A stretch of 64,000 nt of DNA from Octopus vulgaris (lineage: Eukaryota). Positions 16,201 through 23,886 of the stretch are shown in pieces. Position numbers: made by a program. The stretch is from contig OX597830.1 in assembly GCA_951406725.2 (NCBI GenBank), positions 22,072,001-22,136,000 of the forward strand. The letters are read 5' to 3'. Positions within the stretch are counted from its first letter, which is position 1, and each line of letters begins with the position of its first letter.

Positions 16201-19200
16201 CCAGGTGACGGAAGTATTCTGTCACAAAAACTGGAGTAGTCCCTCAGACAAGGTTTAATGTTTCTATCTAAGAAATTTCACTGACAAAGCATTGGTCAAC
16301 CTGAGCTTATGATACAAGACACTTGCCTGATGTGCTGCACAGTGACAGTGAACCTGAAATCATGTCGTTGTTAAATAAATTTAACCATACAATGATGGAA
16401 TCCAACATTAAGCAATTATGATTTCAGTGGAATTTCAACGAACCTTAACTGCTCCCGCATAATGTCCAATCTTATGGCCTCCTCTTGCTGTTGTTTTTCC
16501 ACATCCTTCTGAAGCTTTAAAGCTAATCCAAGATTTTGTGACCGACGTTTCTCCTGTGCTTTCGGGCCCTTTTTTCTCCAGCGTGCAGTCTTCTGTCGTT
16601 TCTCCTGAAGTTTGTTGGAAATTTTCATTTTCTTTTGAAAAAAATGGAAAATGAAATGAGAATAACTTTCAAGTACCAAAAATAAAACATAATGTACAAA
16701 AGAAAATATAAAACAACTGATCCTACAGGACAATATCTTACAAAGGCATGAAATATGTTAAGTCTAGAATCAAACATCACAATGAATCAGACATCCCAGA
16801 TTCATCATCGAGCGGTTGGCATTAGGAAGGGCATCCAGCTGTAGAAACTGCCAGATCAGATTGGAGCCTGGTGCAGCCATCTGGCTCGCCAGTCCTCAGT
16901 CAAATCATCCATGGAAAGCAGACGTTAAACAATGATGATGAGATTAATATAGCATAATATTGCTTTCAAATTTTGGCACTAGGCTAGCTATTTCATGGAA
17001 GGGGCTAAGTCAATTAAATCAACCCCAGTGCTCAACTTTTACTTATCAACCCTGAGAGGAAGAATAGTAAAGTTGACCCCAGCAGCAATTGAACCCAGTA
17101 TTTTGCCTGGGGTGCTAACAATTCTGCCAGCTCATTACCCTAGATTGATTAATATAACAATATTAACATAACACTATAAAACATCCCATAGATTATAGCT
17201 ATTCAGTATAATACTGAATACCACTCCATAATATCATAATATCTCTTGATAAAGAACAAAAGAATTTTTCCTTAGGGCTGTCAGTCATTCTTTTGTCTTA
17301 ATTCATTTTCCATACTAGAATAAGACTTGCGTTCTCCTCCTCCTGTTAATCATTCAAGACGTAGAAGCAAAACAGACAAAGCATGGAAAGTTGACTTATT
17401 TGTAGTGTTTCAGGTGAAAGATCAGAAGCTCCTTCATACATGCACATCAACATCAGCACTATTTTCTGGCTGGAACCATTTCAACTTTTGCACACATGCA
17501 CAGCAGAACCAGAAGGAAGTCAAGAAAGATAATAATTTTAAGTAATATGGCAAATATACTTCACGATGTGTTGCAGCTACTGTTTATAACTAGCTCTCAG
17601 ATTTATTATTGCTTGTTTACACTTTTTCGATATCGGTGTCTTTACGTCACTGGAAAAAGGATATATATTTGCAAAGGGAACCAAAATTTTCATCGACAAC
17701 TGTGATTGTCACACGCTGCTGACGGGTCAACACCCAGAAACAAGTCCGTGTGTATCATAGGTTGAAGACGGGAAGGATGGCTTCCCTTTGCAAATACTGA
17801 TAGGGCACTGAAAGTGTGCCTATAGCCAGCTGGAGGAGGTGTCCTCCTGGAGCAACAAGCTACAGTAGCATCCACCCTTAGGGGTTAGCCATATTTGAAT
17901 GGCAAATATACTTCATAATACTAAGATAAATATTCATAAACACACATTTTTTAATGTGCCATCACATAACATCCTCTATGAGCAGTTTACCATCAGGCAA
18001 CAACTTACTGTACCTCTGTCAACTCATGTCCAAAGGTCTTTCCAATACCACCAGGTTCAAACTTACATCAAGCAATTATAATTCCACAGCAATCATACAT
18101 AATAAACTATTCTCCTTAATGGTAAACTCAACCTATATTCATAATGAATAGGAATAGCTAACAGAATAATCAACTAGAAAGTACCGGAAACTAATGAGAT
18201 TCAATATTTTCAAAAGAAGAATAGTGTGATTTTTCTGACTTTTAAACTCCACCTTTGAGAGTGCTTATTTACAATCTTTACTTTTACACTACATTCCAAT
18301 CAGTTTGAGCTTTGACTATCCTAAAAAAAAAAAAATATTCTTGAATGTACATATCTACCTACATCCACTTCTTTAAATAGCTAGCCACATATATATCTCA
18401 ATCTCCTGCAACAAGTGACAATGCAAAAACACACACACACACACACTTTAATAGCCAACCATCTATATAACTACAGTTACTTAACACAACTTCACTCAAA
18501 AGTTGATGTACATCTATGTCAAGAAGTGACCTTTCTGCATCCCAATAGTAACACTTCCATATTCTGTCTCTCATATCCACACACATACACACACAACCTT
18601 CTCTCTGTCCCTACACCACCTGTTCCTATTTCCCAATGGAAATATGTTTTACTTCTTTCACTTTTGTCCCTACAACTTGAACTCACACTCCCCACAATTG
18701 AATCTATTAAGAGGAGAAAAGGAACAAACAAAGCTGATCACATATTCTTAATTCAATGGCTGACCATTTGGTTTATAAACAAAACAATGAATTCAGGATG
18801 TCTCACCCTTTCAACTGTTAATTTCATACCATTCACATGAGATTTATTCAACCACATTATACATTGCAAAGCTTCGGCCTCAGTAGACATAGTAACAAAA
18901 GCATGACATCGAGTACCAGATTTCCGTGATCGTGTAATCATTTGGCAATCCGCCACCTAAGAGAGAATAAAGAGTCAAAATTTTATGCATGAAAAATTCA
19001 GTATGTACTCAGCTTCATAGTCAACACCAACAGTATCATCCCCAATAGTAGTCCATCGGTCTCAAGAGGCCGTGGATCTGTGCCCAAAGAAATCATGTCA
19101 GCTGCTGATGGTTGTGCAGCGTCTGTTGTGGCTGTACAGACCCACACAGGAGTGGTAGTCATGCATGCTGAGACTACATCTGAAGGCGCTCTCTGCTGGT

Positions 19201-22200: not shown

Positions 22201-23886
22201 TTACTCATTATCTGCAGGATGACAAGACACACATTAGACTGGTGTTGATATTTTGAATACTCACAAGGCTTTGATTGGCCCAGGACACTCACTCATGGTG
22301 CTATGCAGTGACAAAATTTGAAGAGATAAATTGAACGAAGCCTCTGTCTATGTGTGTGTGTGTCTGTCAGTCTCTCTCTCTGTCTGTCTTGATGTCGCAT
22401 GATTGTTGTAAATGAATGCAAAAACATGTCTGGCCATCAGGGAAATATTGCCTTGCTTGGTAACAAGTAAGGGCTGATGACAGGAAAAGCATCTGACTAG
22501 AAAATCTTCAGTAGACTCTGCCCAACCCATAAAAGCATGGAAAAGTGGATATCAAAACAATTGTGAAGACCATGACAATCATTATTAATAAATAACAATT
22601 ATTGAAGGATGAAAACAGATTTCATTCAACATACCTTGCCATATTTGCTAAAAATTGCGGTTAGGAATTTATCAGAGACATTTGCAGGAAAACCACTGAC
22701 CCACAAATTCCGATTGGCTTGGTTGTTGCCTATTAATATAAGAATGTATCAATAAATACAAAAAGATGATGAGGAAATGCAACCCAGTAAGGTCAGAATT
22801 TCAAATAATTCAAAGAAAAGCAACAAGCTTAGAAAGTAAGCAAAGAGAATGTGAGAAAACATGCAAAAGAAAAAAGAAATTACCTTTTTTGGCAGCTTTG
22901 GGCTTAGAAACCAAAGAACTGTAACAATAAAATAATTATTTAGAAATAGCATCATCATCATCAATGGAGAATTTTAAAGGACTTTAATGGATTATAATTT
23001 CAACATTGATGCAAGTGAAAACTGGCAAACCTACACCATACAACTTTACATTAATGTGCTTGATCTAAATAAATACACTGTATATCTGTGTGAGTGCATG
23101 TGTATATATATATATATACATATCAGGGACATACTGCCTGGGTGCGTGTGAAGGTGCGTGGCTCAGTGGTTAGAGCGTCAAACTTATAATCATGAGGTTG
23201 TGAGCTCGAATCCCGGACCGGGCTGCGTGTTGTGTTCTTGAGCAAGACACTTTATTTCACGTTGCTCCAGTTCTCTCAGTTGTAGAAATGAGTTGCGACG
23301 TCACAGGTGCCAAGCTGTATCGGCCCTTGCTTTTCCCTTGGATAACACTGGTGACGTGGAGAGGGGAGGCCGGTATGCATGGGCGACTGCTGGTCTTCCA
23401 TAAAACAACCTTGCCCAGACTTGTGACTAGGAAGGTAACTTTCTAGGGGCAAGCCCATGGTCAGTGTCTGACCGAAGGGGGTCACACATCACACACTGCC
23501 TGGGTAGGCAAGGTAGGCAGTACCTACCCTAAATAAAATAGATCGATAGTAATATTTTCCTTTACGGCAAAATATGCACCTAATTCAATAAAATTATGAA
23601 GGTTACTCTGATTACTATGCATAAAATACAAAATATTTTATTTTTTTGTAGATTAGGTAGGCATAATTTGTCCCTGCCTTTCAATCTCAGTATTAAAGCT
23701 ACGCATAGAACTGCTGTAGTACACATGCTGCGTACATTCCTACAACGTTTTCTTTACGTGCTATAAAAGAGTAAGTAAATCTGTCTACAACTCAATCGCA
23801 TGCCTATGTTTCACATTATTTTTTTATGTGTTTAAATACATAAAGGCACCAACCGCCTACCCTGAATAATTACTGATGGCACATGC

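What the first reader, a model, noticed from the sequence alone, without database searches (positions are those of the whole stretch)
18807..22729. RRM of SAFB-A rewritten almost entirely by non-synonymous changes
Seen: hand alignment gives 33/75 identical residues (44%) between the two RRMs, with no indels, no stops and intact splice sites. In nine consecutive codons (A 22691-22665 vs B 62668-62642; FPANVSDKF vs LATSTRATD) all nine amino acids differ while 8 of 9 third positions are identical. RNP1 changes from RCYGFVTM to RCHAFVTM. Known: the SAFB RRM is normally strongly conserved, and copy B keeps that sequence. Inference: positive selection for a new RNA specificity rather than decay.
Basis: partly seen in the sequence, partly recalled or inferred. 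Interest (0 to 1): 0.85.

Follow-up and report, generated by a model that had tools for sequence, protein, structure and literature searches.

The report
Octopus SAFB paralog with rewritten RRM
One copy in a tandem array of octopus SAFB-like genes is intact but has replaced more than half of its otherwise near-invariant RNA-binding domain, probably to bind something new, although selection is not yet proven.

Summary
Copy A's RRM (exons 22729-22635 and 18956-18807, minus strand) is 33/75 identical to copy B's. There are no indels or stops, the splice sites are canonical, the 9-codon run is as described, and RNP1 reads RCHAFVTM.

The window matches Octopus vulgaris. Copy A is the annotated 825-aa protein P0001, with all 17 coding exons open.

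With 7 outgroups, 31-39 replacements are unique to A and 0-2 to B. B's second RRM exon is 82-90% identical to vertebrate SAFB.

The acceleration is specific to the domain:
- RRM: dN 0.43, dS 0.53.
- Other exons, pooled: omega 0.33.
- Last exon: the A and B branches are about equal in length.

Because B barely changed, omega on the A lineage is about 1.2-2.0. Values of 0.75 or less are rejected. Omega = 1 is only borderline (p 0.02-0.13).

The RNP strands are spared (3/14 changed against 39/61 elsewhere), and the predicted fold is retained.

The rewriting predates a split into at least two A-type copies. A is one of at least five paralogous RRM versions, not one of two.

Decay is rejected. Positive selection is favoured but unproven. 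A new RNA specificity is untested. A branch-site test needs cephalopod nucleotide sequences that these tools could not reach.

The parts
22635..22729 (-). Copy A RRM exon 1 (95 nt; beta1/RNP2, loop 1, alpha1; residues 369-400 of P0001)
   Evidence: Canonical AG/GT splice sites. 100% match to P0001. Pfam RRM_1 14.0 bits on this half-domain.
18807..18956 (-). Copy A RRM exon 2 (150 nt; beta2, loop 3, beta3/RNP1, alpha2, beta4; residues 401-450)
   Evidence: Canonical splice sites. 100% match to P0001. Pfam RRM_1 17.9 bits, against 28.8 for B's exon.
22665..22691 (-). The nine-codon run FPANVSDKF (end of beta1, loop 1, start of alpha1)
   Evidence: 9/9 residues differ from B and 8/9 third positions are the same.
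18888..18911 (-). RNP1 octamer RCHAFVTM of copy A (Tyr to His, Gly to Ala)
   Evidence: The same RCHAF motif occurs in all the A-type sequences fetched.
18912..18956 (-). Beta2 and loop 3 (VADCQMITRSRKSGT): invariant in canonical SAFB RRMs, most variable part among A-type copies
   Evidence: 11/15 differ from B. 9/15 differ between A1 and A2, against 2/35 in the rest of the exon (p=8e-5).
18957..22634 (-). Intron between the two RRM exons of A (3678 nt), holding LINE-like reverse-transcriptase debris
   Evidence: The piece 19801-19929 gives RVT_1 at E=0.049, below the cut-off.
9082..42026 (-). Whole coding span of copy A (17 coding exons, 825 aa, stop at 9084-9082), equal to the Octopus vulgaris record P0001
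   Evidence: Exons found at 42026-41892, 38013-37954, 36301-36275, 35455-35405, about 33048-33016, 31333-31091, 30696-30664, 25773-25288, about 22920-22884, the two RRM exons, 16631-about 16440, 15399-about 15280, 14966-14817, 10689-10489, 10340-10200 and 9426-9085.
41892..42026 (-). First coding exon of A: SAP domain
   Evidence: Pfam SAP at E=1.3e-10, 41 bits against a cut-off of 23.9.
62612..62706 (-). Copy B RRM exon 1 (canonical sequence)
59683..59832 (-). Copy B RRM exon 2 (canonical sequence; 82-90% identical to vertebrate SAFB)
56517..58205 (-). Three linker exons of B (58205-58125, 57384-57241, 56711-56517; Lys/Glu/Ser/Arg-rich) with no counterpart in A
   Evidence: tblastn of B-type proteins finds them. 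No match in A by blastn or by blastp of open frames. P0001 passes from the RRM straight into the coiled coil.
46873..47223 (-). Last coding exon of B, open through to its stop codon. B's 5' part lies beyond the window end.

Best explanation
Copy A is an intact member of a tandem array of SAFB-like genes, seen so far only in Octopus records. It keeps the SAP domain, the coiled coil and the Gly-rich tail, but has lost the linker exons that follow the RRM.

On the stem of the 'A-type' copies, about 40 of 75 RRM residues were replaced. This happened before A1 and A2 split and before O. vulgaris and O. sinensis split. The replacement rate was equal to, and probably above, the neutral rate. Meanwhile the neighbouring copies kept a sequence that has hardly changed since the common ancestor of octopus and vertebrates.

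The replacements spared the two central strands that carry RNP2 and RNP1, and most hydrophobic positions. They rewrote loop 1, alpha1, beta2, loop 3, alpha2 and loop 5.

The most likely reading is adaptive retargeting. The domain still folds as an RRM and still presents a basic, partly aromatic sheet, but the elements around it have changed, including Tyr to His in RNP1. So the protein would bring a different RNA, or another ligand, to the same SAP and coiled-coil scaffold.

Shown here: the asymmetry, the restriction to one domain, the rates, the intactness of the gene and the sparing of the RNP strands.
Inferred: selection as the cause, and a changed ligand.
For: - Asymmetry: A-unique changes 31-39 against B-unique 0-2 with 7 outgroups. 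In the RRM tree the A-type clade has 100/100 support on a stem of 1.04 changes per site, while the inner branches among the other 12 rows, vertebrates to octopus, are each at most 0.07.
- Not older than the rest of the gene: RRM dS is 0.53, against 0.73 pooled for the other exons. The 300 nt upstream of exon 1 still align at 67.5% (K=0.43).
- Domain-specific: RRM dN is 0.43 against 0.245 pooled elsewhere (Fisher p=0.001). Per-exon omega elsewhere is 0.08-0.67. In the last exon the A branch is 0.28 and the B path about 0.21.
- Rate on A's branch: omega is about 1.62, 1.99 or 1.16, depending on the neutral yardstick.
- Simulation at kappa 2 (intron ts/tv is 1.03): the best fit is at omega_A 1.5-2.0. 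Omega_A of 0.75 or less gives P<=0.002 (P<=0.012 across kappa 1-4), and omega_A=1 gives P=0.044.
- Constraint persists: RNP strands 3/14 changed against 39/61 elsewhere (p=0.006). 21 of 25 hydrophobic positions stay hydrophobic. There is no indel in 243 nt, whereas the intron alignments show 5 gap events in 314 columns and 11 in 776.
- The derived RCHAF(V/I)TMSTEAEAL motif is shared by A1, A2, P0003 and P0139.
- Gene intact: 17 open exons. The O. sinensis orthologue is 811/825 identical, and an O. bimaculoides fragment is 143/157 identical.
Against: - Pairwise omega is below 1 (0.81) and does not differ from 1 (p=0.42).
- Estimates swing with the method: exon 2 gives 0.50 by ML and 1.48 by LWL85.
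- With the gene-wide dS as yardstick, omega_A is only 1.16. At kappa 1 the simulation gives P=0.125 for omega_A=1.
- The simulation assumes a clock, takes B's sequence as the ancestor, fixes omega_B at 0.03 and uses a flat prior on time.
- No expression data could be consulted.
- The fold prediction used an alignment that contains canonical RRMs, so its confidence is not independent evidence.
- The 80/81 identity of the RRM between O. vulgaris and O. sinensis says little, because the whole protein is 98.3% identical.
- The uneven A1/A2 differences could reflect gene conversion or mosaic gene models. P0002 mixes exons of several paralogues.
- Binding was not tested at all.
Confidence: 0.55

Rival explanations
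1. Relaxed constraint without adaptation. After duplication the canonical copies covered RNA binding, so A's RRM drifted at about the neutral rate. Only what the fold needs was kept, because the exons must stay in frame for the still-useful SAP and coiled-coil parts. A may act as a partner of the canonical copies that binds RNA poorly or not at all.
For: - Omega_A estimates include 1 (1.16 with the gene-wide dS; P=0.125 at kappa 1).
- Pairwise omega is 0.81 and does not differ from 1.
- The Pfam score of exon 2 falls from 28.8 to 17.9 bits.
- An RNA-stacking Tyr in RNP1 is lost.
- The linker exons after the RRM are also lost.
Against: - Point estimates are above 1 with all three yardsticks, and the best fit is at 1.5-2.0.
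- Replacements are not spread evenly, as drift would predict: RNP strands 3/14 against 39/61 elsewhere.
- Among A-type copies, 9/15 residues differ in one patch and 2/35 in the rest of the exon.
- There are no indels.
- If the later history was constrained, the burst must have been faster than the branch average. This last point is inference.
Confidence: 0.3
2. Copy A is a decaying or unexpressed duplicate (pseudogene), and the RRM is simply the first part to go.
For: No expression data were available. The annotated proteins are computer models. A LINE fragment sits in the RRM intron.
Against: - All 17 coding exons are open with usable splice sites and account for all 825 residues of P0001.
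- Non-RRM exons have a pooled omega of 0.33.
- The orthologue is intact in O. sinensis, and a 91% identical fragment exists in O. bimaculoides.
- In the last exon the A branch is no longer than B's.
Confidence: 0.04
3. The difference is one of age, not rate. Either A's RRM exons come from an old, separately evolving RRM lineage (by exon replacement or gene conversion from a distant donor), or the rest of the gene has been homogenised so that the RRM only looks exceptional.
For: - Divergence between A and B is mosaic. An intronic block is 85% identical (core 94%), while the flanks of the RRM exons are 53-67% identical.
- In O. sinensis, A1 and A2 are 257/264 identical upstream of the RRM but 61/81 within it.
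- Gene conversion is therefore plausible in this array.
Against: - The RRM's synonymous divergence (0.53) is not higher than that of the other exons (0.73).
- Intron position and phase are identical, and the flanking intron aligns across the exon border.
- A search of 1.84 billion cluster representatives found only one further A-like sequence (82% identical). All 65 other hits were 49% identical or less.
Confidence: 0.06

Closest known systems
Vertebrate SAFB1 / SAFB2 / SLTM and Drosophila Saf-B (SAFB family)
   Same: N-terminal SAP domain, one central RRM split by an intron, a long coiled coil (helix 458-558 in the model) and a Gly-rich tail. Copy B's RRM is 82-90% identical to vertebrate SAFB in exon 2.
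   Different: - Copy A's RRM shares only 33/75 residues with the canonical sequence and has His for Tyr in RNP1.
- A lacks the linker exons after the RRM.
[quoted passage not shown] The Octopus records hold at least five different RRM versions.
Canonical Octopus copies: window copy B, P0011/P0010/P0008, P0014, and P0016/P0013
   Same: Tandem neighbours on the same strand with collinear exons and the same intron positions. Copy A shares with the B-type copies (B, P0011/P0014/P0008) the derived coiled-coil repeat (EKMKLEKEKLL..RMEKE, read), which P0016 and Argonauta P0017 lack.
   Different: Their RRMs are nearly identical to each other and to Argonauta. Only the A-type clade sits on a long stem.
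Textbook neofunctionalised duplicates with asymmetric, domain-restricted acceleration
   Same: One daughter keeps the ancestral sequence. The other changes fast in its ligand-binding module while the rest of the gene stays under purifying selection.
   Different: Selection is not demonstrated here, and no new function is known. This comparison rests on general knowledge, not on a call.

Membership tests
SAFB family (SAFB1/SAFB2/SLTM/Saf-B) | N-terminal SAP domain | tested here: met
   Exon 42026-41892 gives Pfam SAP at E=1.3e-10. P0001 carries PF02037.
SAFB family (SAFB1/SAFB2/SLTM/Saf-B) | A single central RRM, homologous by descent to the SAFB RRM | tested here: met
   RRM_1 matches both half-domain exons (14.0 and 17.9 bits; each half is below the whole-domain cut-off of 20.7). 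P0001 carries PF00076. Exon lengths, phases and flanking intron match copy B.
SAFB family (SAFB1/SAFB2/SLTM/Saf-B) | The near-invariant SAFB-type RRM sequence (LWVSGL ... [23 protein letters not shown] ...) | tested here: not met
   33/75 residues identical. Beta2 and loop 3 differ at 11/15 positions.
SAFB family (SAFB1/SAFB2/SLTM/Saf-B) | C-terminal coiled coil, Arg/Glu-rich region and Gly-rich tail | tested here: met
   Predicted helix 458-558. Exons are homologous to B's, with omega 0.08-0.67. The last exon groups with the octopod SAFB last exons.
Canonical RNA-binding RRM | Aromatic residues at RNP2 position 2 and RNP1 positions 3 and 5 (positions recalled from general RRM knowledge). PMC9958909 section 2.4 reports RNA-induced shifts at both RNP motifs of human SAFB2. 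| tested here: inconclusive
   Trp378 and Phe420 are kept and Tyr is replaced by His418. Actual binding cannot be tested with these tools.
Gene under positive selection (omega > 1 on a branch) | A non-synonymous rate significantly above the synonymous rate on the A-type stem | tested here: inconclusive
   Omega_A is about 1.16-1.99. P for omega_A=1 is 0.125, 0.044 and 0.024 at kappa 1, 2 and 4. A branch-site test was not possible without orthologous nucleotide sequences.
Pseudogene | Stops, frameshifts, lost splice sites, or omega near 1 across the whole gene | tested here: not met
   17 open exons. Pooled omega of the non-RRM exons is 0.33.
UHM-type (protein-binding) RRM | An Arg-X-Phe motif after alpha2 and degenerate RNPs (motif recalled, from no call) | tested here: not met
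   By eye in the sequences, the stretch after alpha2 reads NKSHVNGMKLTVER with no R-X-F, and the RNP strands are the best-kept part.

The most novel reading that the evidence does not exclude
The A-type copies are products of a conflict between host and transposon. SAFB proteins bind A-rich LINE and other transposon RNA and suppress it (PMC10901741, passages read), and octopus brains express LINE elements (PMC9115989, title and start of abstract only). On this reading the array grew, and one branch was driven by recurrent positive selection to recognise lineage-specific transposon or repeat RNA. Beta2/loop 3 and alpha1 would still be diversifying between A1 and A2 (9/15 against 2/35 residues). 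That would make an otherwise frozen RRM an arms-race surface.
Probability: 0.12. Interest if true: 0.8.

Novelty: new variant of a known kind. Interest (0 to 1): 0.5.

Why it matters
The SAFB RRM is among the most conserved parts of a protein that links chromatin, RNA processing and transposon silencing. A natural paralogue keeps the scaffold but has more than half of that domain replaced, and it sits next to an unchanged sister copy. This is a ready-made experiment on which RRM residues set specificity.

It also contradicts the published statement that invertebrates have a single SAFB gene (PMC10901741, passage read).

If selection is confirmed, it would be a clean case of domain-restricted neofunctionalisation in a cephalopod, a group whose gene-family expansions attract much interest.

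I found no paper on SAFB in cephalopods. The search 'safb' + 'octopus' gave 2 papers, both unrelated by title. 'scaffold attachment factor' + 'cephalopod' gave 0. 'safb' + 'sltm' + 'rrm' + 'evolution' matched 10 papers, 9 listed, none on cephalopods by title.

Tried and rejected
- The apparent fast evolution between species was rejected. P0002 (O. sinensis, 79% identical in exon 2) first looked like the orthologue of A. The cluster listing showed the true orthologue, P0124 (80/81 identical in the RRM). P0002 is a second A-type copy inside a mosaic gene model.
- No database protein equals window copy B over its C-terminal exons; the best matches are 72-98% per exon. B was therefore analysed from the window alone.
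- The intronic block at 85% identity was not used as a neutral yardstick. It is exceptional, with a core at 94%.
- The other three intron flanks of the RRM exons align at only 53-59%, near the level of unalignable sequence, so they were not used for rates.
- The search of solved structures with B exon 2 found 7 distinct sequences, none of them a SAFB protein. No SAFB RRM structure was available for mapping.
- The Rfam match to mir-297 at 23874-23941 (46 bits, gathering score 90) lies on a CA/TG microsatellite and is taken as chance.
- Seven of the eight long open frames tested gave no Pfam family; the eighth is the SAP exon.
Only the omega_A=1 row is valid; its rows for omega above 1 were not scaled properly and were replaced.
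- Not done: fold search, complex prediction and the protein atlas. The genome-contig collection holds only bacteria and archaea, so it was not scanned.
Searches went exon by exon. Whole-protein work used the databases' own records.
- The many short unnamed hits to B exon 2 (80-88% identical) and the weak unnamed hits were neither fetched nor used, because some could be vertebrate, even human.
- Supplementary files were not requested. Those of PMC10901741 may list SAFB orthologues.
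Full report
WHAT IS THERE. The window carries two tandem SAFB-like genes on the minus strand. blastn and blastp of the two halves of the window give a collinear series of exon and intron matches.

Copy A maps exon by exon, without mismatch inside exons, to the Octopus vulgaris record P0001 ('scaffold attachment factor B1 isoform X2', 825 aa). Seventeen coding exons run from 42026 to 9085 and account for all residues. The first exon encodes a SAP domain (E=1.3e-10).

Copy B starts beyond the window end. Its RRM exons, three linker exons, coiled-coil exons and last exon are all open. 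The window holds no N.

THE OBSERVATION. A's RRM is encoded by exons 22729-22635 and 18956-18807, and B's by 62706-62612 and 59832-59683. The lengths, phases and splice sites are the same.
- Identity is 16/31 and 21/50, or 33/75 from NLW onward, with no gap and no stop.
- The nine codons at 22691-22665 differ from B in all nine residues and in only one third position.
- RNP1 is RCHAFVTM against RCYGFVTM.

Its statistical weight is modest, as 100,000 shuffles of the 81 codon columns show. A run of nine or more replaced residues appears in 10% of shuffles. The composite pattern (nine replaced residues and at most one third-position change) appears in 0.6%, but that statistic was chosen after the fact. 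Over the whole domain, differences by codon position are 33, 23 and 26 of 81. Third positions are therefore not generally spared.

WHO CHANGED. B exon 2 is 100% identical in proteins of three Octopus species, 92% in Argonauta hians and 82-90% in named vertebrate SAFB proteins. That search returned 1827 proteins at E<=0.001 among 1829 candidates, of which 120 were listed.

I aligned the RRMs of 18 named or stored proteins with the two window copies. Against each of 7 outgroups, A-unique states number 31-39 and B-unique states 0-2. A maximum-likelihood tree of 16 RRM rows puts the A-type sequences in one clade (100/100) on a stem of 1.04 changes per site. The inner branches among the other 12 rows, fish to octopus, are each at most 0.07.

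THE FAMILY IS LARGER THAN TWO.
- A exon 2 found only 3 proteins among 3 candidates in the word-based search.
- In the scan of 1.84 billion cluster representatives it found 67 proteins at E<=0.001. One of them (P0139, 64 aa) is 82% identical; the rest are 49% or less.
- The 90% cluster of P0001 holds the O. sinensis orthologue P0124 and a C-terminal O. bimaculoides fragment P0125. P0124 is 811/825 identical overall and 80/81 in the RRM. P0125 is 143/157 identical.
- P0002 (O. sinensis) and P0003 (unnamed source) carry a second A-type RRM, here called A2, which is 61/81 identical to A1. In P0002 the 264 residues upstream are 257/264 identical to A1, but the first 100 residues and the C-terminal part come from other copies. 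It is a mosaic gene model.
- Counting A1, A2, the window's B type (P0014), the P0011 type and the P0016/P0013 type, there are at least five RRM versions.
- A tree of the last exon likewise separates A1, window B, P0011/P0014/P0008, P0002/P0010 and P0013.
- The rewriting therefore belongs to the stem of the A-type subgroup. It predates the A1/A2 split and the O. vulgaris/O. sinensis split.

RATE AGAINST AGE. By the Nei-Gojobori method the two RRM exons give Sd 20.75 of 54.8 sites and Nd 61.25 of 188.2 sites. That is dS 0.527, dN 0.427 and omega 0.81, which does not differ from 1 (Fisher p=0.42).

Three methods applied exon by exon give omega of 0.59-0.88 for exon 1 and 0.50-1.48 for exon 2. The sample is small.

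The other seven exon pairs give omega of 0.08-0.67. Pooled, they give dS 0.733, dN 0.245 and omega 0.33. The RRM has significantly more replacement differences per site (p=0.001).

The RRM's synonymous divergence is not higher than the rest of the gene's, and the 300 nt upstream of exon 1 still align at 67.5% (K80=0.43). The domain is therefore not older than its gene. It changed faster.

In the last exon the A branch (0.28) is about as long as B's path (0.21). The acceleration is specific to the domain.

IS OMEGA ABOVE 1 ON A'S BRANCH? Nearly all replacements are A's, while synonymous changes are shared by two branches of equal age. So omega_A is about dN/(K/2). This gives 1.62 with the RRM's own dS, 1.99 with the upstream intron and 1.16 with the gene-wide dS.

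I simulated two equal branches starting from B's sequence. B evolved at omega 0.03 and A at a chosen omega. The mutation model was HKY with the window's base composition and a flat prior on time, and runs were kept only if their synonymous count was close to the observed one.
- At kappa 2, which fits the intron ts/tv of 1.03, P(Nd >= observed | omega_A=1) is 0.045 in one run (1455 of 8000 runs met the condition) and 0.044 in a second.
- At kappa 1 it is 0.125, and at kappa 4 it is 0.024.
- Omega_A of 0.75 or less gives P<=0.012 at every kappa. The best fit lies at 1.5-2.0, and 4 or more fits poorly.

The honest reading is 'at least neutral, probably above'. This is not a demonstration of positive selection.

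SIGNS THAT THE DOMAIN STILL WORKS.
- Using the secondary structure from the model of P0001, the two central strands that carry RNP2 and RNP1 differ at 3/14 positions. The rest differ at 39/61 (p=0.006).
- 21 of 25 hydrophobic positions stay hydrophobic.
- There is no indel in 243 nt, whereas the intron alignments show 5 gap events in 314 columns and 11 in 776.
- Among A-type copies, the stretch from RNP1 to the end differs at 2/35 positions between A1 and A2. Beta2 and loop 3, invariant from fish to octopus in canonical copies, differ at 9/15 (p=8e-5).
[quoted passage not shown] This is weak evidence, because both alignments contain canonical RRMs.
- Human SAFB2's RRM contacts RNA through both RNP motifs and has a flexible beta2-beta3 loop (PMC9958909; passages and section 2.4 read). 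In A one stacking Tyr has become His.

INTERPRETATION. Decay is rejected. The best-supported account is an intact paralogue, seen only in Octopus records, whose RRM was remodelled around a preserved core. This most likely changes what it binds, on a protein that keeps SAP and coiled coil and has lost the linker after the RRM.

Relaxation without adaptation remains a serious rival. An origin by age or exon swap is unlikely. No RNA data, no cephalopod DNA and no binding data were within reach.

LIMITS.
- Searches with window sequence were made exon by exon. The joined spliced model was left out.
- Whole-protein alignments, trees and folds used database records.
- Short unnamed hits that might be vertebrate or human were not fetched.
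Supplements were not seen.

LITERATURE. [quoted passage not shown] The first statement does not hold for Octopus. The second suggests the arms-race reading given as the novel case. No paper on cephalopod SAFB was found.

Noticed in passing
window 24068-24804 (A) and 63231-63985 (B); core 24100-24420 and 63262-63585; candidate exon A 24332-24123, B 63496-63284, minus strand: An intronic block upstream of the RRM exons is 85% identical between the paralogues, with a core at 94% column identity. The neighbouring intron is 67% identical or unalignable, and the RRM exons are 63-71% identical. The block holds a 210/213-nt segment with a good acceptor (ctctttttag|) and donor (CAG|gtaagc), and 4-8 stops in every frame. 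It is either a conserved poison-exon-like cassette or a gene-conversion tract.
   Followed up: partly
window 56517-58205 (B) against 16632-18806 (A): Copy A has no counterpart of B's three Lys/Glu/Ser/Arg-rich linker exons. Its protein runs from the RRM straight into the coiled coil.
   Followed up: partly
window 53821-53976 and 51153-51263 (B): B carries two copies of the coiled-coil exon that A has once (15399-15277). This matches the doubled LEKMKLEKEKLL..RMEKE repeat in B-type proteins.
   Followed up: no
window 19060-19965, minus strand, inside A's RRM intron: Debris resembling LINE reverse transcriptase, with frameshifts and stops. The piece 19801-19929 gives RVT_1 at E=0.049, below the cut-off.
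   Followed up: partly
database records P0002, P0010, P0012-P0015 (O. sinensis): RefSeq 'isoforms' of the O. sinensis SAFB-like loci combine exons of different tandem paralogues. P0002 has a B-type N-terminus, A-type middle exons, the A2 RRM and the C-terminus of P0010. The cause is either read-through transcripts or merged gene models.
   Followed up: partly
database record P0004 (1073 aa, species name cut off in the listing): One cephalopod model holds two canonical SAFB RRMs in tandem, about 110 residues apart. This suggests duplication of the RRM exons in another lineage as well.
   Followed up: no
window 23874-23941: A CA/TG microsatellite scores as mir-297 at 46 bits, below the gathering score of 90. 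Taken as chance.
   Followed up: yes
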